Of a DNA stretch of 64,000 bases, positions 33,657 through 45,005 are shown piece by piece; position 1 is the first letter of the stretch; each line of letters begins with the position of its first letter. The position numbers were made by a program, and so were the translations under genes. The notes beneath the pieces were generated by a model that saw only the letters and a program-made list of their open reading frames with translations, did no database searches and was not told the origin of the DNA. The stretch is from the IMG/VR virus record IMGVR_UViG_3300014205_000182, positions 64,001-128,000 of that record; one strand, given 5' to 3'. The stretch is from a virus. Taxonomy: Duplodnaviria > Caudoviricetes.

Positions 33657-33732
33657 GGTGAGGTACGCTAAGTTAAAGCGGCGGGCACTATAAAGCCCGT
33701 GTTTGGTGGTTCATGTCCATCCCTCACCACCA
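33657..33732 (+). tRNA. tRNA-like RNA with 8-nt anticodon loop (ACTATAAA); identity unclear
   Basis: GGTGAGG/CCTCACC-A-CCA, CGCT/AGCG, CGGGC/GCCCG, GGTGG-TTCATGT-CCATC. Confidence 0.8.
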
Positions 33733-33816
33733 TCCGATAGTGATGCTAGCGGTTACTTCTTTGTCTAAGGACGGGTTCTTCGGGACCCGTAAATACCCGC
33801 TGCGATTTTCTTCGGA
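33733..33816 (+). ncRNA. Y-RNA-like element A
   Basis: TCCGA/TCGGA, TAGTGATG, AGCGG/CCGCT, TTACTTC; cUUCGg hairpin insert. Confidence 0.7.
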
Positions 33817-33823
33817 CTAATTT

Positions 33824-34051
33824 ATGAGCATCCCAAACTACTATAACGACGGGCATACTGCCAGCGCAGAGATGAAGCGCGACCTTGCACGTGTTCGCCT
33901 GGCTAAGCCAGAGCGCTACCTAACTCGCAAGGTGAAGGAACAGCGGCATTCAACCGAAGGTACGGTCGACGTTGTCGTCAACCGCGAGCCTGATTCGTTG
34001 GCGATGGGGCGTCGTGCGCGACACGAGTTCTGGACCAGGAGAGCTAAATGA
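33824..34051 (+). CDS. small basic hypothetical protein
   Basis: ORF. Confidence 0.6.
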   Translation: MSIPNYYNDGHTASAEMKRDLARVRLAKPERYLTRKVKEQRHSTEGTVDVVVNREPDSLAMGRRARHEFWTRRAK

Positions 34052-34497
34052 GCGTCTTCGATACTTCTGATGTGGCTGGTGAGCATGCTCCTTATTTCAA
34101 GGAGATCGAGCGGCTGGAGATGTCAAACCAGCGACTCATTGCAGAGCTAGGGCGCATTGCCGAAGCTCTGGGTGTTGAACCGTCTATGGTTAAGGTTCTC
34201 GGTAAGATTCAGGAACTTCAAGACCGGCAGGTTGAGGTTTGTTACCGATCTAGACACGTTATCTACAGTAACAAAGCAGCAGCCGAAGAAGATGCTGCGT
34301 ATTACAACGGCCAACCAGACGACGTGGTCCCTGTGTTTAAGGTGTCACCTACACTTTATTATGAGAAGGCGTACACTACGACCAGCACTCACGGTATCAA
34401 GGTATTCTCGACTTTCGACGATTATCTGAAAGCTATCGCACTTGGTACCTTGACACCGCGCCAAAAAGTCTTACTAGGGTTGCAGGAGAAAGAATAA
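34048..34497 (+). CDS. hypothetical protein
   Basis: coupled ORF. Confidence 0.65.
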   Translation: MSVFDTSDVAGEHAPYFKEIERLEMSNQRLIAELGRIAEALGVEPSMVKVLGKIQELQDRQVEVCYRSRHVIYSNKAAAEEDAAYYNGQPDDVVPVFKVSPTLYYEKAYTTTSTHGIKVFSTFDDYLKAIALGTLTPRQKVLLGLQEKE

Positions 34498-34760
34498 TGA
34501 AGAAGCTAATACTAGTAGCAGTACTGCTAAGCGGTTGTAAAAAGGTTGAACGTCCGAATACGCCACCGCCAATTGCGGACGGTAAGTGCCTGGCTGACAA
34601 GTATGTTGGCGCGACTGCAATGAAGCAGTCTTGCCTATACGTCGGCTACAACTGGTCGTGTGCGTATGACGCTGGTATCTATTCGTGTGATCGTGGGACT
34701 GAAGCAAGTGGAGAGCGCGTTACAACGCCCGTAACAGAAATTCTAGGAGCAACAAAGTGA
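34497..34760 (+). CDS. Cys-rich lipoprotein
   Basis: MKKLILVAVLLSGC. Confidence 0.7.
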   Translation: MKKLILVAVLLSGCKKVERPNTPPPIADGKCLADKYVGATAMKQSCLYVGYNWSCAYDAGIYSCDRGTEASGERVTTPVTEILGATK

Positions 34761-35743
34761 ATAAGACAGAAGTGACAATCGTAGCCGATCTCTCGGGGTC
34801 AATGCAGGGTAACAAGGAGTACAAGCTCCGTCAGATGGTTAGCCAGCTGATCCAGCAACTTGCGAACGAAGAGGCGAAGGGCAACCAGCTTTTCGAAGTT
34901 CGTTTGCTTCCATTCTCTACCAGCGCTCAGGTCTGGGGACCGTGGCCGGCTTCTGCCGCTGCTGGCCAGGTCGAGAGGCTGAACACGCGCTCTCCGTTCG
35001 GTCAGGGTACGGCGTTGATTGACGCTATCGGCAAGGCCCTCGAATCGTTCAACGGCAAGACGCCCGCGATCATCGCAATCTTCTCCGACGGCCAGGAGAT
35101 GCACAGCACGATCTACAGTGCTTCTCGCCTCAAGGCTGCGGTCGCCATCAAGGAAGCGACCGGGAACCTCACCCTGACGTTTGCCGGCCCTGACAGCGCA
35201 CGCCACATGCTGCGCAACATCGGCCTGCCTGAGGGCAACTTCCAGTCGTGGGATGGTTCTGAGCGTGCAATGCAGGAGACTGTCCAGCGCACGACGTCCA
35301 GCATGGACAACTACATCCAGGATCGTTCGAAGGGTGTTACCCGTTCGGCACGCTTCTACGCCGACCCAGGCGACGTTTCTGTCTCGGCAGTTCGCGGTAT
35401 GACCAAGAAGGTCACTCCTAGCGAAGTGCGCAAGGTAACGGCGAAGATGGACGGTCGTGCCATCTCGGACTTCTACGGCTCGAAGTTCGACCCGGGCAAC
35501 CACTACTACGAGCTTGTCAAGCCTGAGTACATCCAGGATGGCAAGGAGCTTGTGATCCTCGTCAAGTCGTCGAACGAGTATCGCCTGGGCTCTCGTGCGG
35601 TTCGCTCTCTGCTCGGTCTTCCGGAGACCGGTAAAGTTCGTGTTCACCCGGGACCACACAATGACAAGTACCAGATCTTCGTCCAGTCTAGCTCGATGAA
35701 CCGTAAGGTTGTCGAGGGCCAGACGATGATCACGGTGAAGTGA
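34757..35743 (+). CDS. von Willebrand factor A domain protein
   Basis: MIDAS DLSGS, TALIDAI, SDG.E. Confidence 0.85.
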   Translation: MNKTEVTIVADLSGSMQGNKEYKLRQMVSQLIQQLANEEAKGNQLFEVRLLPFSTSAQVWGPWPASAAAGQVERLNTRSPFGQGTALIDAIGKALESFNGKTPAIIAIFSDGQEMHSTIYSASRLKAAVAIKEATGNLTLTFAGPDSARHMLRNIGLPEGNFQSWDGSERAMQETVQRTTSSMDNYIQDRSKGVTRSARFYADPGDVSVSAVRGMTKKVTPSEVRKVTAKMDGRAISDFYGSKFDPGNHYYELVKPEYIQDGKELVILVKSSNEYRLGSRAVRSLLGLPETGKVRVHPGPHNDKYQIFVQSSSMNRKVVEGQTMITVK

Positions 35744-35954
35744 TGACTGAATCCGGCTGGCTCATTGAGCGCTACGATCGCAACGAACAGCCGATGTACT
35801 GGTGCGGACTACTAATCACCGGTAATGTGTGGTCCTACGACAGTTCGAACGCCGTTCGCTTCTCACGCGAAATTGACGCCGACACTGTCGCGAGGAATTT
35901 ACCTTCACCATCTGGTACAGCCCACGAACACGTGTGGATTGATTTGGAGCTTTA

Positions 35955-36227
35955 ATGCTAACACTGATCTTTCTTATGGTTCTAATCCTTGGCTCTGTGA
36001 TCTCGCAGACAATGCGCGAAGAGGTCTTCAGGCCTAGTTTTAGCCTTGGTCGAGTAGTGACTTACTTTATCGCTTTCGAGACGATTGAGAGGATCCCATT
36101 CAAGTCGTATGATACGATCACCTCCGTCGCTGTCTGGATCTTCGCACTGCTAGTCTTTACTATCGCGCTAGTTCTCGTCCAGAAGGGCGAGGACTACTGG
36201 TGGAAGCATGCAACTCGCAAGACCTGA
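35955..36227 (+). CDS. small membrane protein
   Basis: hydrophobic segments. Confidence 0.6.
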   Translation: MLTLIFLMVLILGSVISQTMREEVFRPSFSLGRVVTYFIAFETIERIPFKSYDTITSVAVWIFALLVFTIALVLVQKGEDYWWKHATRKT

Positions 36228-36663
36228 CCAGGTCGTACAGTTAGGCTTCACCGGCACTAAAGTCGGGATGACACCGGCCCAAGCGGTCGGTGTTGCGGCG
36301 TTTCTGGGGCAGTTTGCCCGGTTCGTCGGCCATCACGGGCTCTGCATCGGTGCTGACATACAATTCGACGGGCTGGCACGTGCTGCGCTCGGCTTTGAAC
36401 ACATGGTGATGTACCCGGCCTCAGGTGTCGGTCCAAAAGCAGGGAGCGTCCCAGCGTCGCCTGGTGACGTTATGCGAGCACCACAACCCCCACTGCTCCG
36501 TAACGCGGTCATCGCCTCCACGGTCGACGTGCTGCTAGCTACCCCGAAAGAGGAGCATATGCAGCTTAGGTCCGGAACGTGGACGACGGTTCGTTATGCA
36601 CTGAGTCACAACAAGCCGGTTTTTGTGGTGATACCGAGCGGGCAGGTGATTCCGTGGTACTGA
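36208..36663 (+). CDS. SLOG/DprA-like nucleotide-binding protein
   Basis: GFTG, HHG.C.GAD, RN, SGTW.T.RYA. Confidence 0.75.
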   Translation: MQLARPDQVVQLGFTGTKVGMTPAQAVGVAAFLGQFARFVGHHGLCIGADIQFDGLARAALGFEHMVMYPASGVGPKAGSVPASPGDVMRAPQPPLLRNAVIASTVDVLLATPKEEHMQLRSGTWTTVRYALSHNKPVFVVIPSGQVIPWY

Positions 36664-36963
36664 CTACAAAATTACAAACTTTGAAGGAGCGGATGGAGCG
36701 TGATCTGATACGCACCTGCACACACATCAAAGCAGTGGGGCGATTCGGGGAAGAGGCAGCGAGAGCCCGAATTGTCGAACGCTTTCATGACGGCATGCCG
36801 GCACCTTGCACGTTTCAAATGTCTGTTAACCAGGTGTTCCAAGCGGGACCTGTCAGTATTTACCTCTACAACGAGGAAGGACAGCCAGTTATCGAAGTTG
36901 ACCTGGACTACCCGATGGTGGTCGGACCAGGTGACGAGATCCGACTACAATTCAGAGGGATCA

Positions 36964-37401
36964 GTGTTCAATCGCTGTAAAAAAGCCAGAGAGCAAGCCG
37001 GGTTATCACTTCAACAAGCTGCCAGAGTCACTGGCATAGCTGTCGAAACGTTGCATACGTTTGAAGATCCTAAAGATCCCGGACCACCGGAGGAGATGGC
37101 GCAAGTCATCGCATCATATTACGGTTGCTCGGTCGAATGGCTGCTTGGCAACGGGCCAGATCGTGATTACGCTACAGTCAAAGCAATGAAGGGTTCGGAG
37201 CAGCTATCAGACCATGACCGAGATGTCTTGGCCGAGTTTGCTGCCAGCCTCCCGAGGCGTAAGCAACCCACCGAAATCCGTGACGGTGGTGATGAAGACG
37301 ACTGGAACCAGTTTCGAGAAATCGATCGCCTGAGGTTTCAGCGTTTTGATAAGTTTGAAGACGCCGATTCTATTCATAAAATCACCGGAAAGAAACGATG
37401 A
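36964..37401 (+). CDS. XRE-family HTH regulator
   Basis: AREQAGLSLQQAA...YGCSVEWLLG. Confidence 0.8.
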   Translation: MFNRCKKAREQAGLSLQQAARVTGIAVETLHTFEDPKDPGPPEEMAQVIASYYGCSVEWLLGNGPDRDYATVKAMKGSEQLSDHDRDVLAEFAASLPRRKQPTEIRDGGDEDDWNQFREIDRLRFQRFDKFEDADSIHKITGKKR

Positions 37402-37751
37402 AGATCCTATTCCTGGACGACAACGCTGAGCGCCACGCCAAGTTCAAACACAACCGCGTCGGTATGGACATCACGCAAGCGTGGAATTACGCCGAGGCGT
37501 GCCACCACTTGACCCTTGAGGTGTTTGACATCGCTTATCTTGATCACGATCTCGACGAGCTAAGTACTGCCGGCCTACCGACAGAGGAGAAGACTGGTAC
37601 GCACGTGGCCGAGTTTATCGCAGCTATGCCTGAGGAGAAGCGTCCTAAGTACGTGGTTATTCATTCGTGGAACTACGCTGGCGCGCTCAGGATGCTCGGT
37701 ATTCTTAGCTCGGCCGGTGTGGCTTGCATGACGGAGTCTTTTCGTGGATAA
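37398..37751 (+). CDS. stand-alone receiver-like protein (cyclic-phosphate-processing type)
   Basis: LFLDD, LDHDL, TG, IHSWN..GA.RM. Confidence 0.75.
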   Translation: MKILFLDDNAERHAKFKHNRVGMDITQAWNYAEACHHLTLEVFDIAYLDHDLDELSTAGLPTEEKTGTHVAEFIAAMPEEKRPKYVVIHSWNYAGALRMLGILSSAGVACMTESFRG

Positions 37752-38059
37752 ACGACAAGTTAGGATCATCAATAAGCAAGGGGTGCTTATAGGTGTAGGT
37801 AAGTTGCGCTATGTTAACACCGGAGAAGGGCACGGCTATAACTGCATGGTTCAGTGCGAACCTCCTGTAGAATTAACGATCTTTAGTCACCAGTACACCG
37901 AACATTTCTACTTCCTTCTGCCGTCCGGGCATTATCACGTCTGGGGTTGTGGGCATAGCGAACCTGACGACCAAATCCAGATCCACCCTGAAGACTTGCA
38001 CGATATTCTGGTCTGGCATCCACAGGAGTCTTTCAGAGGTTGAACTAGTTTTCTGATTG

Positions 38060-39550
38060 ATGCTACCAGAACGTCTGCAAACCCTACCAACAAACGGCAT
38101 AGCTTTCGACTTAGAAACGTACCTGATCCGTCCGGGGAACTTAGTTCCCCCGCTCGTCCTGGGCTCCGTTGCCTGGTACGATGGAGCTAACATTCAGGGC
38201 GCCCTGCTCGACAAGGAGCAGGCGCTTGAGTTATTTGCTCAGGTCATCGACGACACTACGAAGATCATCGAAGGCGCTAACATCGCTTTCGATCTAGCTG
38301 TTCTCGTTCGCGAGTTCGCCAAGCGAGGGATTGACATTATCCCCTACATCGCCATGGCGCTTATGGGCGAGCATCGCGAACACATGACCGGCATCGACGA
38401 CGGTCGAATCTACGACATTCAACACGCCGAGGCTCTGAACGCCATCGGTCTCGGAATGCTCGGCAAGAACCCGCGAACCGGTGAGCCTCTGAAGGGACGC
38501 TACTCGCAGGATCAGGTTATCAAGCTTAACTTTGACAGAGATGATGCCAAGATTAACGACGAATTCCGTTTGCGATACGGCGAGTTCGACGGTGTACCGC
38601 TCGATCAACTTCCCGAGAAGGCTCGCCAGTACCCAGTAGACGACGTCGTCAACTGTAAGCAAGCAGCACTGGCCCAGACTGGTCACATCCCTAAGATCGG
38701 CCCGTATCACACCTGGGGACCGAAGGGTGCGTGTGTCGACTGTGGCGCCACGGGCATGAGTACGCCGTGCTGGATCACGAAGCCTCACCTGAACCTTCAC
38801 GACCTTGCTAGCCAGACCTCGACGGCATTCTGGTTGCACATGGGCGCAGCTACAGGCTTCAAGATCGACCAGAAGTACGTCGACATCATCGAGAATTATT
38901 CGTCTAAGAACCGCATCGACGGCCTCAAGCCGTACATTGAAGCGGGTCTGATTCGTCCGAATGGTACCGAGGATCGCAGCGAACTTAAGCGCCGCGTTGC
39001 TGTTGCTTTTGGTTCCAAGGATCCGTGCCCTGTCTGCTCCGGCACTGGCAAAGTACCGAGCCCGGCCAACCCTAAGTCCAAGATCATCTGCTTTCAGATG
39101 GCCGAGGACCAGCAGACCAAGCTCAAGACTTGTGACGGCACTGGTCTGATTCTTCACCCTGATGTGCCGCGTTCTGAGAAGGACGGCATCGGTTACGGGC
39201 GTTCGTACCTGATTGATAGTGGTGACGAATTCCTCATGGGTTACGCCGAGGTGATGGAAGACGCCAAGGTTCTGAACGTCTACGTTCCGTTCCTTCGTAC
39301 TGGGCGTTTGTGTGTCTCGTGTGACCATCACGGCACGGACAAGGATCCTCACAAAGAGGGTTGTGCGATGGCCGGCTGGAAAGATATCCCACTGACCCTG
39401 CGCCCAAACCCTATCCTTGATACAGGACGTGTCAGCTACGATGGGGCTGTAATGCTCCTGCCACGCCGCCCCGGTTTTATGGGTAAGTTCTTCGAAGAGA
39501 TTGAAGTGCCAGACGACTACGTCCTTCAGGAAGGTGAAGAATGGGCGTAG
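38060..39550 (+). CDS. family A DNA polymerase, N-terminal fragment (3'-5' exonuclease, thumb)
   Basis: FDLET, NIAFD, YPVDD exonuclease motifs; TGRVS...LPR. Confidence 0.85.
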   Translation: MLPERLQTLPTNGIAFDLETYLIRPGNLVPPLVLGSVAWYDGANIQGALLDKEQALELFAQVIDDTTKIIEGANIAFDLAVLVREFAKRGIDIIPYIAMALMGEHREHMTGIDDGRIYDIQHAEALNAIGLGMLGKNPRTGEPLKGRYSQDQVIKLNFDRDDAKINDEFRLRYGEFDGVPLDQLPEKARQYPVDDVVNCKQAALAQTGHIPKIGPYHTWGPKGACVDCGATGMSTPCWITKPHLNLHDLASQTSTAFWLHMGAATGFKIDQKYVDIIENYSSKNRIDGLKPYIEAGLIRPNGTEDRSELKRRVAVAFGSKDPCPVCSGTGKVPSPANPKSKIICFQMAEDQQTKLKTCDGTGLILHPDVPRSEKDGIGYGRSYLIDSGDEFLMGYAEVMEDAKVLNVYVPFLRTGRLCVSCDHHGTDKDPHKEGCAMAGWKDIPLTLRPNPILDTGRVSYDGAVMLLPRRPGFMGKFFEEIEVPDDYVLQEGEEWA

Positions 39551-39981
39551 ATCACATCGGAAAAACGGAGAAGGGGTGTACCCGTTGCCTGGAAACTAAA
39601 CCGATTGATAGTTTTTACCTGGTCAAACACCAGGCTAACGGAAGATTTTATCGGCAAGCCCAATGTAGGGCCTGTGACGACAGTAGACGCAAACGGGAGA
39701 ACGATTGTAATCGAGAGCGTAACAAGTGGCGTGCGATTCTGAAGAAGTACGGGATTACGAAAGATCAGTGGGAGGACAGGTTCTCACAGCAAGGTTCCAG
39801 ATGTGCAGTATGTCCTGCAATTGAACCTGGATGGGAACGCGGTTGGGTGGTGGATCACGATCACAAAACCGGACGTATACGAGGGTTACTGTGTGTTAAC
39901 TGTAACTTGTTAGTGGGTCACGCCAAAGACAACCCGTCAACGCTGCGGAATGCAGCGAAATACCTGGAGACAACACAATGA
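39541..39981 (+). mobile_element. EndoVII-family homing endonuclease inserted in the polymerase
   Basis: CAVC, VDHDHKTGRIRGLLC..CN; overlaps both polymerase fragments. Confidence 0.85.
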
Positions 39982-41207
39982 AGAAAATCAAGCGATGGAG
40001 CGCACAGTACGTTCCCAGCATGCGCGAATGCTTTCAAGCTCGCGACGGCAAGGGCTATTCGTCCGAGGACTTCAAGGCCGGTGAAACGTTTACGCACGCC
40101 CAGAGTTGTATCTGGTTGCTCGGATACTCTGACCTTGGTGTCGCTCTCCTGAACGACGTCGATCCTCACGGCGCCGTCGCTGCATCCGTTCTTGGTGTGA
40201 GCTACGAAGAATGGTTCAAGCGTCGTAAGGAACCTCTCTTTAAGGCGGCTCGTCAGGGCGCCAAGCCATTTACGTTTGGAAAGCCCACCGGCATGTCGTC
40301 GATCAAGCTTGTCTTGTCTAACCGCGCCCAGGGCCAGGATACGCCAGCCGAGGGAGGACCGTCGTGGATTGACGACGGAACGTATACCGGCAAGAAGATT
40401 CGCGGGTACAAGGGTACGAGATTCTGCATTCTGATGAACGGCTCACCTACCTGTGGTGACATCAAGGTAACCAGCTGGGGTCGTCGCGACAAGATCCCGC
40501 CGACTTGCAAGGCTTGTCTGGAATGTGCCGATCACCTCGGCAAGATTTGGCTCAAGCAGTGGCGTGAGAACCAGCCGTACTACGACATCAACGACGGGAT
40601 CGTCAACGAAGGTATGATGATCACTGAGGAAGCTCTGGAGCGTTGGCCGTGGCTCAAGAAGGTCTATCGCCCTGGCACGAAGACCGAACCTGGCCAGGTG
40701 ATGCAACACTGGTCCGGTCGTTTGCGTGGTGGTATGGACTTCACGACGACGTGCAACGGGTGGTTCCAAGTCCTTCTGGCCGAGATCACCAAGCTTGCAT
40801 ACCGCCTCGTCGCTCGTGAGTGCTACGACTCGACAATCAAGGTGCCAACACAGTTGTTCTACAACTCCAACCGTAGTCGTTACGCTGGTATGCAGAGCCC
40901 ACTGTTCCGGTCTACACCGGTTGCACCATTTCACGACGAGTTGTTTATGGAGCACCCGGCGTCGATGCTGGTTGACGGTGCAATGCGCACCAGTGAAGTA
41001 ATGCGTGATGTTTTTGCGTATGTTTGCCCGGACATGGCTGCGAAGGTTGGTGCCGACCCTACCATCATGGAGCGTTGGTACAAGAACGCCGAGCCGGTCT
41101 ACCGCGACGCGGCGGGTAACAAGTGCGAGCCCGACGCGCCGGGCGCACGGCTTTCGCTGTGGAAGCCGAAATTCGGACCGGGCGCTGAGGTTGTTGGAGT
41201 CCAGTGA
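39978..41207 (+). CDS. family A DNA polymerase, C-terminal fragment (motifs A, B, C)
   Basis: RECF..., SEDFKAGE, RQGAKPFTFG, FHDEL; own GGAG ribosome-binding site. Confidence 0.85.
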   Translation: MKKIKRWSAQYVPSMRECFQARDGKGYSSEDFKAGETFTHAQSCIWLLGYSDLGVALLNDVDPHGAVAASVLGVSYEEWFKRRKEPLFKAARQGAKPFTFGKPTGMSSIKLVLSNRAQGQDTPAEGGPSWIDDGTYTGKKIRGYKGTRFCILMNGSPTCGDIKVTSWGRRDKIPPTCKACLECADHLGKIWLKQWRENQPYYDINDGIVNEGMMITEEALERWPWLKKVYRPGTKTEPGQVMQHWSGRLRGGMDFTTTCNGWFQVLLAEITKLAYRLVARECYDSTIKVPTQLFYNSNRSRYAGMQSPLFRSTPVAPFHDELFMEHPASMLVDGAMRTSEVMRDVFAYVCPDMAAKVGADPTIMERWYKNAEPVYRDAAGNKCEPDAPGARLSLWKPKFGPGAEVVGVQ

Positions 41208-41229
41208 GACCTTCGCTGGTTATCTGGGC

Positions 41230-41841
41230 ATGACGTACGAGAGACCAGATAGCCGTCCTCTGCCAGAGTTTCAGCCTTGGCCTAAGATCCCGAGACTTAA
41301 CCGTGAGGTTACCGTTTCGGAGAAGATCGATGGAACAAACGCTGCGGTCTGGATTTCTGATGACGGTACTCAAATCGGTGCCCAGTCTCGGACGAAGTGG
41401 ATCACTCCCAAGGATGATAACTACGGTTTCGCTCGTTGGGTAGAGGAAAACCGCGACGAGCTTCTAAAGCTCGGACCTGGACATCACTTCGGTGAATGGT
41501 GGGGCTCTGGTATCAACCGCCGCTACGGTCTAACCGAGCGTAGGTTCTGGTTGTTCAACACGCATCGTTGGGGTAATCCGGATACACGTCCTGCGTGTGT
41601 GGGCTGCGTTCCAGTTCTTTGGAACGGTAACTACCAGGACATGGATCTTGCTGCAATCATGGCCAAGCTCACGAGTGAGGGTAGCGTGTCTGCGCCCGGG
41701 TTTATGAAGCCTGAGGGAGTTGTAATCTTCCATCACGCCGCAGATCAGTACTTCAAGGTGCTTGCGGAGGGTGACGAGTTACCTAAGGGGATTACTACGT
41801 TGAAGGAACGCGCAACGCTTGCAAAGCTGGAGGGAAAATGA
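41230..41841 (+). CDS. ATP-dependent RNA ligase (Rnl2-like)
   Basis: KIPRL, EKIDGTNA, GEW.G, EGVV. Confidence 0.8.
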   Translation: MTYERPDSRPLPEFQPWPKIPRLNREVTVSEKIDGTNAAVWISDDGTQIGAQSRTKWITPKDDNYGFARWVEENRDELLKLGPGHHFGEWWGSGINRRYGLTERRFWLFNTHRWGNPDTRPACVGCVPVLWNGNYQDMDLAAIMAKLTSEGSVSAPGFMKPEGVVIFHHAADQYFKVLAEGDELPKGITTLKERATLAKLEGK

Positions 41842-42104
41842 GCGATCGAAAGTTCAAGATTGGTGACGTCGTTGTTCTGCGCTCGGGCGGGCCGCAGATG
41901 ACCGTACTTCAATACGAAGTCGACAAATTTAACTACGTTGAGGACGACGAGGAGCCCGGTGTGGAGTGTTGTTGGTTTGCCGAGACAGGCAACGGGTACA
42001 CACCAGACGACATCCACAGTGATGAATTTGCTGAAGAGATTCTGACACTGCTTTACACCGCTGAAGCTTTTGACAACGCCAATAAACACAAGAGGGACCA
42101 GTGA
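41838..42104 (+). CDS. YodC/DUF2158-family protein
   Basis: FKIGDVV.LRSGGP.MTV...C.WF. Confidence 0.8.
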   Translation: MSDRKFKIGDVVVLRSGGPQMTVLQYEVDKFNYVEDDEEPGVECCWFAETGNGYTPDDIHSDEFAEEILTLLYTAEAFDNANKHKRDQ

Positions 42105-42502
42105 GCCTCTGGACACGTGGTATCACATCTCTCGGCTGGATCGGAATCGATCTTGACGGAACTCTAGCCACTTACGGCACTCGCCAGTGGCCAGACATCG
42201 GCGAACCTGTCCCAGCTATCCTAGCAATCGTGAAGGATTACCTAGCTCAAGGGCGCGAAGTTCGCATCATGACGGCACGCGTCGGTAACCTCTTCAAGAA
42301 CCACGTAACTCGTGCAGAGTACGACGACGGAGTTGAGCAGGAGCGTTTAGTTCAGGCTTGGTGCATGAAGCATCTCGGCAGAGAACTACCTGTAACTGCC
42401 GTGAAGGACTATGATATGGACCTTCTTCTGGACGACCGTGCAGTGACTATCGAGAAAAACACTGGTGTGATCTTGACAAAGGATTGGAGCGTGACTAAAT
42501 GA
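42101..42502 (+). CDS. HAD-family (PNKP-type) phosphatase
   Basis: DLDGTLA, TAR, K, DDRA. Confidence 0.8.
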   Translation: MSLWTRGITSLGWIGIDLDGTLATYGTRQWPDIGEPVPAILAIVKDYLAQGREVRIMTARVGNLFKNHVTRAEYDDGVEQERLVQAWCMKHLGRELPVTAVKDYDMDLLLDDRAVTIEKNTGVILTKDWSVTK

Positions 42503-42507
42503 GTGAT

Positions 42508-42741
42508 ATGAACAATTCACAGAAGGCGGTACAGGCTCTGGTTATTCAGCTGCACGAAGCCGGTGAGCCGATTGAAGACATTACCGACGCGTTCTCGTTT
42601 GCTGGTGCCATTGCAGCGGCAAGCCTCAAGCTGCCGCGACGCAACGTCGAAGGCCTTGTCGGTATTCTTGCATCGGTGATGAACAACGAGATCCCTTCGC
42701 ATTATCCGTCCCTTGACGATAAGCCCTTGACAGAGAACTAG
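42508..42741 (+). CDS. hypothetical protein (start 42499 or 42508)
   Basis: TTGACA(42473)-17-TAAATG-6-ATG(42508). Confidence 0.55.
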   Translation: MNNSQKAVQALVIQLHEAGEPIEDITDAFSFAGAIAAASLKLPRRNVEGLVGILASVMNNEIPSHYPSLDDKPLTEN

Positions 42742-42755
42742 TTCGTAGTTAGATT
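42727..42755 (+). promoter_or_regulatory. promoter of ncRNA operon 2 / Ro60
   Basis: TTGACA-17nt-TAGATT; predicted +1 near 42761-42762. Confidence 0.85.
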
Positions 42756-42760
42756 GTTTT

Positions 42761-42825
42761 TGAGACAGTGAAGCTGACGGATACTTCATCCATTAAAGAA
42801 ACCCCGTCAACGTTATATCTTCTCA
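42761..42825 (+). ncRNA. Y-RNA-like element B
   Basis: TGAGA/TCTCA, CAGTGAAG, TGACGG/CCGTCA, ATACTTC...AAAC. Confidence 0.7.
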
Positions 42826-42829
42826 TTTT

Positions 42830-42903
42830 GCCCCTGTAGCTTAATTCTAGAGCACCGGTCATTAGGACCGGGGATCGTGGTGAAAATCCATGCAGGGGCG
42901 CCA
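42830..42903 (+). tRNA. tRNA-like RNA with atypical loop CA-TTA-GG (UUA at anticodon position, A33)
   Basis: GCCCCTG/CAGGGGC-G-CCA, GCTT/GAGC, CCGGT/ACCGG, CGTGG-TGAAAAT-CCATG. Confidence 0.8.
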
Positions 42904-42904
42904 A

Positions 42905-42965
42905 GCGGTAGTGATAGACTCGGATACTTCATGGGGAAATAAACCCGAGTCAACAATATCTCCGC
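42905..42965 (+). ncRNA. Y-RNA-like element C
   Basis: GCGG/CCGC, TAGTGATA, ACTCGG/CCGAGT, ATACTTC...AAAC. Confidence 0.7.
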
Positions 42966-42975
42966 GTTAATTTAT

Positions 42976-43061
42976 GCACCTTATAGCTAGCAGCGGCGTG
43001 AATCACCAGCAGTACTGGTCGCGAAAGCGTAGTCACGACAAAATGAAGGTAGGGTGCGCCA
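42976..43061 (+). ncRNA. CCA-ending multibranch RNA
   Basis: GCACCTTA/TAGGGTGC-G-CCA; CGTGA/TCACG enclosing ACCAG/CTGGT and CGC-GAAA-GCG. Confidence 0.6.
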
Positions 43062-43064
43062 ATT

Positions 43065-43194
43065 TGCCGATAGTGATGAGAGCGGTTACTTCATTGATAA
43101 CGAACGAGGTCCGGGCTGCAAACCCCGGCGCACCTGCAAAGGTGTGTAGCTTAATAGTAGAGCGCGAAAACACCGCAATCGATTATCTTCGGCA
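43065..43194 (+). ncRNA. YrlA-like Y RNA (element D) with circularly permuted tRNA domain
   Basis: same stem motif as A-C; inside, in order: AGGT, T arm CCGGG/CCCGG, acceptor hairpin CGCACCT-GCAA-AGGTGTG, D arm TAGCTTAATAGTAGAGC. Confidence 0.85.
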
Positions 43195-43202
43195 CTTTTC
43201 AA

Positions 43203-43248
43203 GTGCGCCCCTGGACTGAGGGTCGGGGGACGGGGTCCAGGGGCGCAC
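43203..43248 (+). other. 14-bp perfect hairpin with G-rich loop
   Basis: GTGCGCCCCTGGAC/GTCCAGGGGCGCAC; four G-tracts. Confidence 0.7.
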
Positions 43249-43364
43249 ATCCTTTTATGTCCAGCAAGCATTACAACCCTGAAAAACGTGTATGGCGAGG
43301 CCGCTCCTACAAGAACGGCAAGCGTGTTTCTGAACTCAAGTACTCCAACAAAGGTAGTGACACA

Positions 43365-45005
43365 ATGGCAAACATTCTGAATCCAAAGTCTCCGAAGAAG
43401 ATCGACCAAGTCGAAACCCACAAGAACTGGATGGGTGGAACTTCGTTCGACATCAACGATCCAATCATGCGGCTGCGCATCGCAGCTAGCTCGTGCTTCT
43501 TTGGCGAGCCACAGTACTACTCGACGGACCCTGACGACAAGCGCAAGGCGCGTCAGGCATCTATGCCTGCTAACTTCGGGAAGCCGACGACACTGCCGGC
43601 AGCGCAGCTTACCAAGCTTCGTCAGACGCTGACGGCCATCGATCCTCAGGAGTGGCGGTCGATGACGCCGGCTCAGGCGATGGTCTCTGCTATCGACGCA
43701 GCCCTAGACCACGACCCTGAGGCAACGCTCGGCATTGCAGCAGCGCTTCGCCAGGCTGATCACATCCGTACGACGCCCCAGGTTATCCTGGTTCGTGCAG
43801 CACACCACCCCAAGGTTCGTGGTACTGGCATGCTCAAGAAGTATGCTCAGGAGATCATGGCACGTGCAGACGAGCCGGCCGTCGGTCTCGCATACCACAT
43901 CTTTGCCTACGGCAAGGAGAAGCCAATCCCGAACGCCCTGAAGAAGGTGTGGGCACAGCGCCTCGCACGTGCTTCGGAGTACGACCTCGCCAAGTATCGC
44001 CTGGCTGACCACTCGGTCAAGACGGTCGACGTCGTCAACCTCGTTCACGCCAAGTCTCCAGCAATCGGAAAGCTCATGAAGGGTGAACTTACGACCGAGG
44101 GCGAGACGTGGGAGTCCATCATCTCGCAAGGCGGATCTACCAAGGAAAACTGGGAGAAGGCCATCGACAAGATGGGCCACATGGCCCTACTGCGAAACCT
44201 GCGTAACTTCAACGACAAGGGTGTTAACCCGTCGCTGTACACTGGCAAGCTCGTTGGTGGCGCAGCGACCGGTAAGCAGCTTCCGTTCCGCTATTACTCG
44301 GCGTACAAGGCTGTCGCCGGTTCTTCGGCACCGGTGATGGACGCTATCGAGCAGTGTCTGGAGATTTCGCTGGGTAACCTGCCGAAGTTCCCGGGCCGTA
44401 CGATGGCGCTTGCCGACAACTCGGGCTCGGCTCGTGGTGCAACCACGTCCACGATGGGAACGATGCAGGTTTCGACGATTGCTAACTTGACGGCTATCGT
44501 GGCCGGCAAGGTGTCGGACGACGGCTACATCGGTGTCTTCGGTGACACGTTGAACGTCGTGCCGGTGCGCAAGAGGTCGTCGGTGTTCGATCAGTTGAAG
44601 GCTGCCGACGAAGCTGGTGCAGCAGTCGGCGGTTCTACCGAGAACGGTATCTGGCTGTTCTGGGAGAAGGCTATCCGCGAGAAGGAGCATTGGGACAACG
44701 TGTTCGTGATGTCTGATATGCAGGCAGGTCACGGCGGGCTCTATGGTACGCGTGCGTCGATGGCGTCGTACTCTCGTGAGTACGGTTGGCCGGCAGCTAA
44801 CTCGCCGCACATCGACGTCGCCAAGCTCGTCAACACGTATCGCGCCAAGGTCAACCCGAAGGTCAACGTGTTTCTAATCCAGGTCGCCGGTTACCAGGAC
44901 ACCCTGATGCCGGAGTTCTACAACCGTACGTATATCCTCGGCGGATGGGGTGAAGGCGTTCTTCGCTTTGCTGCCGCGATGGCTAATATCGGAGAGGTTA
45001 AGTGA
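43365..45005 (+). CDS. Ro60/Rsr (TROVE + vWA) RNA-binding protein (alternative start 43257)
   Basis: FFGEPQYY, R.DE, MALLRNLRN, LPFRYYSAY, DNSGS MIDAS, SDMQ. Confidence 0.9.
   Translation: MANILNPKSPKKIDQVETHKNWMGGTSFDINDPIMRLRIAASSCFFGEPQYYSTDPDDKRKARQASMPANFGKPTTLPAAQLTKLRQTLTAIDPQEWRSMTPAQAMVSAIDAALDHDPEATLGIAAALRQADHIRTTPQVILVRAAHHPKVRGTGMLKKYAQEIMARADEPAVGLAYHIFAYGKEKPIPNALKKVWAQRLARASEYDLAKYRLADHSVKTVDVVNLVHAKSPAIGKLMKGELTTEGETWESIISQGGSTKENWEKAIDKMGHMALLRNLRNFNDKGVNPSLYTGKLVGGAATGKQLPFRYYSAYKAVAGSSAPVMDAIEQCLEISLGNLPKFPGRTMALADNSGSARGATTSTMGTMQVSTIANLTAIVAGKVSDDGYIGVFGDTLNVVPVRKRSSVFDQLKAADEAGAAVGGSTENGIWLFWEKAIREKEHWDNVFVMSDMQAGHGGLYGTRASMASYSREYGWPAANSPHIDVAKLVNTYRAKVNPKVNVFLIQVAGYQDTLMPEFYNRTYILGGWGEGVLRFAAAMANIGEVK

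What the first reader, a model, noticed from the sequence alone, without database searches (positions are those of the whole stretch)
33733..43194. Four-copy covarying stem motif (Y-RNA-like docking module) at two loci 9 kb apart
Seen in A 33733-33816, B 42761-42825, C 42905-42965 and D 43065-43194: outer stem - YAGTGAW - inner stem ending CGG - WTACTTC - variable cargo - A-rich linker - CCG inner stem - T-rich segment - outer stem. Stems differ in sequence yet keep pairing (TCCGA/TCGGA, TGAGA/TCTCA, GCGG/CCGC, TGCCGA/TCGGCA; AGCGG/CCGCT, TGACGG/CCGTCA, ACTCGG/CCGAGT, GCGG/CCGC), while the intervening motifs are conserved. This is the signature of an RNA family rather than a DNA repeat. Cargo ranges from about 10 nt to a UUCG hairpin to a whole tRNA domain. 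AGUGAW only loosely resembles the reported bacterial Y RNA GNCGAA(N)G motif, so this may be a new subclass.
Basis: partly seen in the sequence, partly recalled or inferred. Interest (0 to 1): 0.85.

Follow-up and report, generated by a model that had tools for sequence, protein, structure and literature searches.

The report
Phage Y RNA array beside Ro60
The four repeats are real, structured small-RNA genes of the Y RNA kind, the partners of the RNA-binding ring protein Ro60, whose gene lies directly downstream in this uncultivated phage; the kind is known, but this sequence variant and its interleaving with tRNA-like genes appear undescribed in Rfam and the papers I searched.

Summary
A, B, C and D sit at the stated coordinates with the stated stems. 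The composite motif occurs 4 times against 0 in 100 shuffles. A fifth copy (E) lies outside the window, in the phage's main tRNA array.

The window belongs to a 143.7 kb IMG/VR phage record. A TROVE/Ro60 gene (43257-45005) starts 63 nt after D.

A covariance model built from short copies finds 39 copies in 17 sources. These include Bacillus phage G, CcrColossus, Xanthomonas phage Tabio and Arthrobacter phage Atuin. Of the 39, 37 lie in a locus with a Ro60 gene, on its strand. In three 8-10 Mb bacterial MAGs the only genome-wide hit lies just 5' of Ro60.

In the stems 94.6% of cells pair (61.8% when shuffled) and 15 of 16 pairs show compensatory changes.

D carries a permuted tRNA-like domain, so it is YrlA-type. 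A, B, C and E are short forms.

In Tabio, sub-threshold Rfam YrlA matches overlap model hits.

Verdict: these are Y RNAs, a variant of a known kind. Ro60 binding is inferred, not shown.

The parts
33657..33732 (+). tRNA-like element with encoded CCA. It has a 6-bp anticodon stem and an 8-nt loop. It ends 0 nt before copy A.
   Evidence: Rfam tRNA 42.9 bits; cloverleaf MFE, z -3.9; not called by ARAGORN
33733..33816 (+). Y RNA copy A, short form with a UUCG-capped hairpin as cargo. It lies 9.4 kb 5' of Ro60 on the same strand.
   Evidence: Sequence; pattern; model R2 31.6 bits, E 1e-5
42727..42755 (+). Promoter-like site TTGACA-17-TAGATT, 5 nt before copy B
   Evidence: Consensus scan, 10 of 12 matches; consensus match only
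42761..42825 (+). Y RNA copy B, short form with 16-nt cargo
   Evidence: R2 69.5 bits, E 1e-16
42830..42903 (+). tRNA-like gene with UUA triplet, A33, atypical D and T loops and encoded CCA. It lies between B and C.
   Evidence: ARAGORN; Rfam tRNA 47.5 bits with alignment showing loop CAUUAGG
42905..42965 (+). Y RNA copy C, short form with 14-nt cargo
   Evidence: R2 40.4 bits, E 3e-8
42976..43061 (+). CCA-ended element with a 7-bp acceptor-like stem but no cloverleaf. It lies between C and D.
   Evidence: Sequence; fold; no tRNA match in Rfam or ARAGORN
43065..43194 (+). Y RNA copy D, YrlA-type: the docking module with a permuted tRNA-like domain as cargo. The domain spans 43110-43163 (T arm, acceptor-like stem, D arm).
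   Evidence: R2 30.7 bits, E 2e-5, full length; Rfam YrlA 14.9 bits over model positions 30-81; fold z -3.1
43203..43248 (+). Very stable hairpin followed by a short U run, between D and the Ro60 start. It may be a terminator, attenuator or processing stem.
   Evidence: MFE -38.6 kcal/mol, z -5.2
43257..45005 (+). Ro60 (TROVE-domain) gene. The true start may be the in-frame ATG at 43365.
   Evidence: Pfam TROVE 5e-13; genome search; PDB 9KOP/9L5Y Thermus phage phiLo Ro60 1e-14; tblastn to Ro-like proteins of 98 phage records
41005..41841 (+). RNA ligase gene 0.9 kb 5' of the array (context). The true start is probably downstream of 41005.
   Evidence: Pfam RNA_ligase PF09414 3e-12
42101..42502 (+). 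Small HAD-like protein, weakly similar to the polynucleotide kinase phosphatase domain (context, weak)
   Evidence: PHROG 415 1.6e-4 and PHROG 1238; Pfam HAD_PNKP 0.0055, below cut-off

Best explanation
The copies are genes for Y RNAs, the small non-coding partners of Ro60. The phage encodes Ro60 directly downstream of D.

Each RNA has a shared Ro60-docking module. It consists of an outer stem P1, one bulged base, two more pairs (RG with CY), a small internal loop (YG.. opposite ..UU), an inner stem P2 that closes with C-G/A-G, and a loop that opens with WUACUUC and ends A-rich. The variable cargo is inserted in that loop and is the effector-binding part. It is a permuted tRNA-like domain in D (YrlA-type), a hairpin in A, and short single-stranded loops in B, C and E (short, YrlB-like forms).

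Inferred steps: B, C and D are transcribed from the promoter-like site at 42727-42755 as one precursor together with two tRNA-like elements. RNase P and tRNA 3'-end processing at those elements release the individual Y RNAs. A and E are released in the same way from other tRNA clusters. Ro60 binds the module on its outer surface. The cargoes tether it to host or phage RNA-handling proteins such as PNPase, tRNA-binding enzymes or the nearby RNA ligase. This would steer RNA decay or repair during infection.
For: Shown by computation.

(1) Four copies in the window, five in the genome, against 0 expected by chance.

(2) The TROVE/Ro60 gene begins 63 nt after D.

(3) A blind pattern scan of 2.9 million viral contigs returned 118 loci. 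The hits I picked out as true copies, from their stems and 3' UUCU motif, lie up to 1.5 kb 5' of a Ro60 homolog on the same strand wherever the locus reaches far enough. At E <= 0.01, model R2 hits only 7 of 100 pattern loci. Six of those 7 carry Ro60.

(4) In loci chosen only by Ro60 protein similarity, R2 finds 1-5 copies beside Ro60. These are Bacillus phage G, CcrColossus, Tabio, Atuin, BRock and Rabbitrun. In all, 37 of 39 hits lie in a locus with a Ro60 gene, on its strand.

(5) In MAG genomes of 10, 8.4 and 8.5 Mb the single genome-wide hit lies directly 5' of the Ro60 gene.

(6) Covariation: 94.6% of cells are paired against 61.8% in shuffles and 40-48% when partners are slid. 15 of 16 pairs have double changes. 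These include A-U (23) versus G-C (12) after the bulge and G-C (24) versus A-U (12) in the P2 closing region. RNAalifold predicts the same structure on a plain MAFFT alignment.

(7) G-U pairs number 39 and A-C cells 10, so the structure is read on the strand that carries Ro60 in 37 of the 39 copies.

(8) The cargo of D matches YrlA positions 30-81: T arm, acceptor-like stem, D arm.

(9) Rfam YrlA full-length matches overlap R2 hits in Tabio and align P2 plus UUACUU with the YrlA basal stem plus AUGCuu.

From the literature: Y RNAs are modular, with a Ro60-binding stem and an effector module. They are encoded near Ro60 in more than 250 bacteria and 22 phages (PMC4201824; 10.1101/312249).
Against: No experiment shows that Ro60 binds this variant. 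The published GNCGAA(N)G motif is not met literally. Rfam YrlA scores D at only 14.9 bits against a gathering score of 69, and nothing reaches gathering in the window. R2 finds nothing beside the one phage Ro60 whose Y RNAs were tested biochemically, Thermus phiLo. It also finds nothing in Nitratidesulfovibrio phage SRB7757 or csAssE-Sib. A lies 9.4 kb from Ro60, and E lies about 94 kb away on the other strand. The invariance of UACUUC (39 of 39) is partly ascertainment, because the patterns and models contained it. UUUCUUC and UUCCUUC variants exist. The covariation counts come from an alignment fitted to the model. Processing and effector steps are inference only.
Confidence: 0.85

Rival explanations
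1. The elements are cis-acting leader or autoregulatory elements of the Ro60 mRNA. Ro60 would bind its own 5' UTR, and the elements would not be free-standing small RNAs.
For: D ends 63 nt before the Ro60 start and is followed by a very stable hairpin. In L122, L133, L134 and L143 a copy ends 20-150 nt before Ro60.
Against: Copies also lie 3' of Ro60 (L122 has two, L053, phage G, Atuin). They occur in tandem runs of 3-5. Two are unlinked to Ro60 and sit inside tRNA clusters (A, E). D has the YrlA architecture of a stable RNA. The two roles are not mutually exclusive.
Confidence: 0.07
2. The elements are structured spacers of tRNA operons, such as processing or stability elements for the neighbouring tRNAs, with no functional tie to Ro60.
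For: Every copy in this genome abuts a tRNA or tRNA-like element within 0-8 nt. The same is seen in Atuin, L053 and HGTV-1.
Against: Many copies have no tRNA nearby but do have Ro60 (L122, L018, L126, L131, and the three MAGs). In this genome only five copies exist, although ARAGORN tRNA genes. Phage tRNA arrays without Ro60 were not surveyed.
Confidence: 0.05
3. It is a DNA-level repeat, such as an operator, a recombination site or a mobile-element end, whose palindromes merely look like RNA stems.
For: It is a short repeated unit with inverted repeats in intergenic DNA.
Against: The stems change sequence completely between copies while keeping pairing. G-U outnumbers A-C by 39 to 10. 37 of the 39 copies lie on the strand of the Ro60 gene in their locus. 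The conserved motifs are asymmetric.
Confidence: 0.02

Closest known systems
YrlA (Rfam RF02553), the bacterial and phage Y RNA with a tRNA-like effector domain (Chen et al. 2014, PMC4201824; structure 10.1101/312249)
   Same: Copy D has the same layout. The 5' and 3' ends pair into a stem, a conserved motif sits at the stem-loop junction, the cargo is a T arm, acceptor-like stem and D arm in permuted order, an A-rich strand leads back into the stem, and it is encoded just 5' of Ro60 on the same strand. In Tabio the two models hit the same RNAs.
   Different: D scores 14.9 bits against the gathering score of 69. The junction motif is CGG|WUACUUC rather than CGA|AUGCUU (GNCGAA(N)G). The second 'V' stem of the Rfam consensus is missing. 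The T loop (CUGCAAA) and D loop (AAUAGUA) lack the canonical GGUUCGA and GG, and resemble this phage's own odd tRNAs. An extra outer stem with a bulge and a conserved YRGYG/UUCY loop lies outside the Rfam model.
YrlB, the short second Y RNA of Salmonella and Mycobacterium smegmatis (PMC4201824)
   Same: A, B, C and E are short Y RNAs that keep the Ro60-binding stem but lack a tRNA-like domain. They are encoded in the same cluster as a YrlA-type RNA.
   Different: No model or sequence of YrlB was available here, so homology is untested. The phage copies are more numerous, and two are unlinked to Ro60.
Yrl1 and Yrl2 of Thermus phage phiLo, shown to bind the phage Ro60 and host PNPase (PMC12135203)
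   Same: They are phage-encoded Y RNA-like genes directly 5' of a phage Ro60. That Ro60 is the closest solved structure to this one.
   Different: Model R2 finds no match in the phiLo locus. Those RNAs were defined by a CGAA motif in a large internal bulge.
Metazoan and Deinococcus Y RNAs (RF00019, Yrn1)
   Same: A terminal stem carries the Ro60 site, with a bulged base in a conserved helix and a variable effector-binding loop.
   Different: No Rfam match. The conserved sequences differ.

Membership tests
Bacterial/phage Y RNA (Yrl type) | Encoded close to a Ro60/TROVE gene, within about 4 kb and on the same strand | tested here: met
   B, C and D lie 63-496 nt 5' of the TROVE ORF on the + strand. 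The criterion is not met by A (9.4 kb away) or E (other strand, about 94 kb away).
Bacterial/phage Y RNA (Yrl type) | The 5' and 3' ends pair into a long stem that carries the Ro60 site, and this is supported by covariation | tested here: met
   P1 and P2: 94.6% of cells paired, 15 of 16 pairs with compensatory changes. RNAalifold agrees.
Bacterial/phage Y RNA (Yrl type) | GNCGAA(N0-1)G motif near the 5' end | tested here: not met
   The homologous place, fixed through Tabio, reads GNCGG-WUA in A-E. C-G is kept; the rest differs.
Bacterial/phage Y RNA (Yrl type) | Physical binding to Ro60 | not testable with these tools
   Needs co-purification or gel-shift assays.
YrlA (RF02553) | Rfam gathering score of 69 bits | tested here: not met
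   D scores 14.9 bits, E 5.4, over model positions 30-81 only. No hit at gathering.
YrlA (RF02553) | Permuted tRNA-like domain: T arm, acceptor-like stem closed by a loop, D arm | tested here: met
   D 43110-43163 aligns to those model positions, and the MFE fold shows the three hairpins.
YrlA (RF02553) | Conserved T-loop and D-loop residues that make the tRNA elbow | tested here: not met
   The T loop is CUGCAAA and the D loop AAUAGUA, without GG.
Metazoan Y RNA (RF00019) | Match to the Rfam model | tested here: not met
   No match even at E <= 10 around the copies.
tRNA | Cloverleaf recognised by ARAGORN or Rfam | tested here: not met
   The modules themselves are not called. Only the neighbouring elements are.

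The most novel reading that the evidence does not exclude
The module defines a distinct, largely phage-borne clade of Y RNAs with its own Ro60 recognition code: a bulged base, the RG/CY pairs and WUNCUUC. It would be a portable docking cassette fused to interchangeable cargoes. The RNAs would be cut out of polycistronic precursors by non-decoding tRNA mimics that serve only as RNase P and 3'-end processing signals. Orphan copies inside tRNA arrays would tie Ro60 surveillance or repair to the phage's own tRNA pool, together with the nearby RNA ligase, as a counter to host tRNA-cleaving defences.
Probability: 0.3. Interest if true: 0.6.

Novelty: new variant of a known kind. Interest (0 to 1): 0.45.

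Why it matters
Ro60 and Y RNAs are studied for RNA quality control and for autoimmunity, yet few bacterial or phage Y RNAs are defined and Rfam recognises none of these copies. This work gives a compact, well-covarying model of the Ro60-docking module. The model finds short Y RNAs that synteny-plus-YrlA searches miss, including copies far from Ro60 and inside tRNA arrays. It also points to specific bases to mutate: UACUUC, the bulge and the RG/CY pair. The recurring placement among phage tRNAs and next to RNA ligase supports the idea that phage Ro60 particles act in the conflict over tRNA integrity. That idea is testable in cultured phages that carry the same module: Bacillus phage G, CcrColossus, Tabio and Atuin.

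Tried and rejected
- MAFFT alignments of the copies misplaced the 3' halves.
- Rfam at gathering threshold found nothing in the window.
- A weak C/D-box hit (sR2, 11.6 bits, E 8) and a k-turn reading of UGAUGA were dropped because the 3' strand has no GA.
- I looked by eye for a complement to UACUUC in the cargoes and found no consistent partner. The ACUUC/GAGGU pairing in the MFE fold of D is not conserved.
- Megablast of the locus against named phages found no match.
- The supplementary alignments of Chen et al. 2014 are not held.
- Sequencing runs: no RNA holder is listed. The only holder is one landfill-metagenome DNA run that may be the source, so expression and RNA ends could not be examined.
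- R2 found no match in the Thermus phiLo, Nitratidesulfovibrio SRB7757 or csAssE-Sib Ro60 loci.
- L014 has two good copies but no Ro60 within the 4.4 kb held. L061 is likewise cut at the locus end. Both are unresolved.
- TAA recoding as an explanation for the UUA tRNA was rejected. TAA ends 26 of 89 long open frames.
- Salmonella and M. smegmatis Y RNAs could not be fetched, so direct comparison with validated YrlA and YrlB was not possible.
Full report
**What is there**

The window is positions 64001-128000 of a 143.7 kb IMG/VR virus record estimated about 90% complete. The composite pattern AGTGAW-N4-12-GGWTACTTC matches four times, all on the + strand, against none in 100 dinucleotide shuffles. 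A regex scan and later a covariance-model scan of the whole genome find exactly one more copy. This is E, at genome 12936-13006 on the minus strand, inside the phage's main tRNA array of about 30 genes.

**Context in the window**

The ORF that starts 63 nt after D (43257-45005) is a Ro60 homolog:
- Pfam TROVE at 5e-13.
- Best solved relatives are the Ro60 of Thermus phage phiLo, 9KOP and 9L5Y.
- tblastn matches 'Ro-like RNA binding protein' genes in 98 phage records. The nearest named one is Bacillus phage G gp540 at 38% identity.

An RNA ligase gene (PF09414) and a weak HAD/PNK-phosphatase-like gene lie just 5' of the array.

Each copy abuts a tRNA-like element:
- A tRNA-like gene with encoded CCA ends at 33732, and A starts at 33733.
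- B ends 4 nt before a tRNA-like gene with a UUA triplet (42830-42903). C starts 1 nt after its CCA.
- A CCA-ended acceptor-stem element (42976-43061) precedes D by 3 nt.
- E is flanked by two sequences that fold as cloverleaves, although ARAGORN and Rfam do not call them.

A promoter-like site (TTGACA-17-TAGATT) ends 5 nt before B. A very stable hairpin separates D from Ro60.

**Relatives elsewhere**

A scan of 2.9 million viral contigs with the 5' core pattern returned 118 loci, most of them chance hits as expected for 14 fixed bases. After a scripted stem filter I picked out the true copies by eye, from their stems and 3' UUCU motif. Each lies up to 1.5 kb 5' of a Ro60 homolog on the same strand wherever the locus reaches far enough.

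I built a covariance model (R2) from eight short-cargo copies from six phages. Its results:
- At E <= 1 it finds 39 copies in 17 sources.
- These include loci chosen only by Ro60 protein similarity: Xanthomonas phage Tabio (4), Bacillus phage G (5), CcrColossus (3), Arthrobacter phage Atuin (2), Streptomyces phage BRock (1), Gordonia phage Rabbitrun (1), and a weak hit in the archaeal virus HGTV-1.
- 37 of the 39 lie in a locus with a Ro60 gene, on its strand.
- Among 100 pattern-derived loci (0.9 Mb), only 7 have hits at E <= 0.01, and 6 of those 7 carry Ro60.
- Three bacterial MAGs carry Ro60 genes 56-60% identical to the phage's: a Polyangiales and a Myxococcaceae MAG by their record titles, and a third from the same phylum sample. 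In each, the only genome-wide hit in 8-10 Mb lies immediately 5' of Ro60.
- 149 other genomes sampled from that phylum had none.

**Structure**

On the 39-sequence alignment, 94.6% of pair cells form standard pairs. This compares with 61.8% after shuffling partners and 40-48% when partners are slid by 1-3 columns. 15 of 16 pairs show changes on both sides.

- After a single bulged base (U, C or A), the 5' RG pairs with the 3' CY. The counts are A-U 23 and G-C 12.
- The P2 closing region alternates CGG/CCG with CAG/CUG. The counts are G-C 24 and A-U 12.

The alignment is fitted to the model, which inflates such counts. However, RNAalifold predicts the same P1, bulge, two-pair extension and P2 on a plain MAFFT alignment. 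G-U pairs outnumber A-C cells 39 to 10, so the RNA is read from the strand that carries Ro60 in 37 of the 39 copies, not as DNA or from the other strand.

The most conserved bases are G9 and G11 of YRGYG, the UUC of the 3' strand, and UACUUC at the start of the loop, which is present in 39 of 39 copies. That last figure is partly ascertainment. A CcrColossus YrlA-type RNA has UUUCUUC and a MAG copy has UUCCUUC.

**Relation to known Y RNAs**

Chen et al. 2014 (PMC4201824) found YrlA RNAs near Ro60 in 254 bacteria and 22 phages. They defined a GNCGAA(N0-1)G motif near the 5' end. Wang et al. (10.1101/312249) describe Y RNAs as a Ro60-binding stem module plus an effector module, which in YrlA mimics tRNA. 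The phiLo paper (PMC12135203) names Bacillus phage G and CcrColossus among the phages Chen et al. reported.

- The cargo of D matches YrlA model positions 30-81, the T arm, acceptor-like stem and D arm, but at only 14.9 bits.
- Its T and D loops lack the canonical elbow residues. Its D arm is nearly identical to that of the neighbouring UUA tRNA-like gene.
- In Bacillus phage G a YrlA match (36 bits) follows directly after a UGAAGCGG...CAGUUACUUC 5' half.
- In Tabio, full-length YrlA matches (52 and 37 bits) lie inside R2 hits. They align YrlA 'cggCga|AUGCuu' with 'ACACGG|UUACUU', and the A-rich 3' linker with YrlA 'aaAaAc'.

So P2 plus WUACUUC is the counterpart of the YrlA basal stem and GNCGAA(N)G region. 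The AGUGAW segment and P1 lie outside the Rfam model. The literal GNCGAA(N)G motif is not met.

R2 finds nothing in phage phiLo. That phage's Yrl1 and Yrl2 are the only phage Y RNAs with binding data known to me (PMC12135203). Ro60 binding of this variant is therefore inferred from context.

**Mechanism proposed**

The shown steps are the structure, the copy number, the linkage to Ro60, the strand polarity and the YrlA-type cargo in D. The inferred steps are as follows.
- Ro60 docks on the conserved module.
- The cargoes tether effectors.
- The tRNA-like neighbours act as processing signals that release the RNAs. They look unfit for decoding: one has an 8-nt loop, one has A33, and one has no cloverleaf. 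TAA ends 26 of 89 long open frames, so there is no sign of recoding.
- The particle acts on RNA decay or repair during infection. This is in line with the adjacent RNA ligase and with the rsr-rtcB linkage known in bacteria.

**Rivals**

- A cis-regulatory leader of Ro60 fits D and some relatives. It does not fit copies 3' of Ro60, tandem runs or the orphan copies.
- A tRNA-operon spacer fits this genome, but not the many copies with Ro60 and no tRNA nearby.
- A DNA repeat is excluded by the compensatory changes and the G-U bias.

**Verdict**

It is a phage Y RNA array, a known kind of system. Its junction motif, its outer helix with a bulge, its short forms and its interleaving with tRNA-like elements are not captured by Rfam, and I did not find them described in the papers I could search. 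No RNA data exist for this phage.

Noticed in passing
window 33657-33732, 42830-42903, 42976-43061: The three CCA-ended tRNA-like elements next to the Y RNAs look unfit for decoding. One has a 6-bp anticodon stem with an 8-nt loop. One has a UUA triplet with A33 and D and T loops lacking the elbow residues. One has an acceptor stem only. TAA ends 26 of 89 long open frames, so TAA is not recoded.
   Followed up: partly
L003 13010-13082 (-) and 12856-12929 (-), i.e. the same genome positions, outside the window: Two sequences flanking copy E fold as cloverleaves, one with a CCA end. Neither ARAGORN nor Rfam calls them. ARAGORN also reports odd anticodon loops (tgaa, ga) in the main tRNA array.
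   Followed up: partly
window 43203-43248: A 15-bp GC-rich hairpin (-38.6 kcal/mol, z -5.2) followed by a short U run lies between D and the Ro60 start. It may be a terminator, an attenuator or a processing stem. Homologs align only from about residue 37, so the Ro60 start may be the ATG at 43365.
   Followed up: partly
window 38057-41207: An Endonuclease VII ORF (39541-39981) sits between a 497-aa ORF with no family hit and a 409-aa ORF that matches a PHROG DNA polymerase. This looks like a polymerase gene split by a homing-type endonuclease.
   Followed up: no
window 34757-35743: A stand-alone von Willebrand A domain protein lies about 1 kb 3' of the orphan copy A. Ro60 itself carries a vWA domain, so a link is conceivable but untested.
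   Followed up: no
L130 3370-3442 (Gordonia phage Rabbitrun); L131 3635-3705 (Xanthomonas phage Tabio): In Rabbitrun the small annotated CDSs gp93 and gp94 overlap a Y RNA hit and may be mis-annotated. In Tabio, ARAGORN calls a tRNA-Asn inside a YrlA-type Y RNA.
   Followed up: no
L128 5848-6011 (Streptomyces phage BRock): A near-threshold manA RNA match (49.7 bits against a gathering score of 55.2) lies among the tRNA genes 3' of Ro60.
   Followed up: no
L133, L134, L143 (bacterial MAG contigs; Myxococcaceae and Polyangiales by the record titles of L133 and L134): The closest Ro60 relatives (56-60% identity) are in these bacterial MAGs, each with one module copy directly 5'. This hints at a myxobacterial host or gene source for this landfill-derived phage.
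   Followed up: partly
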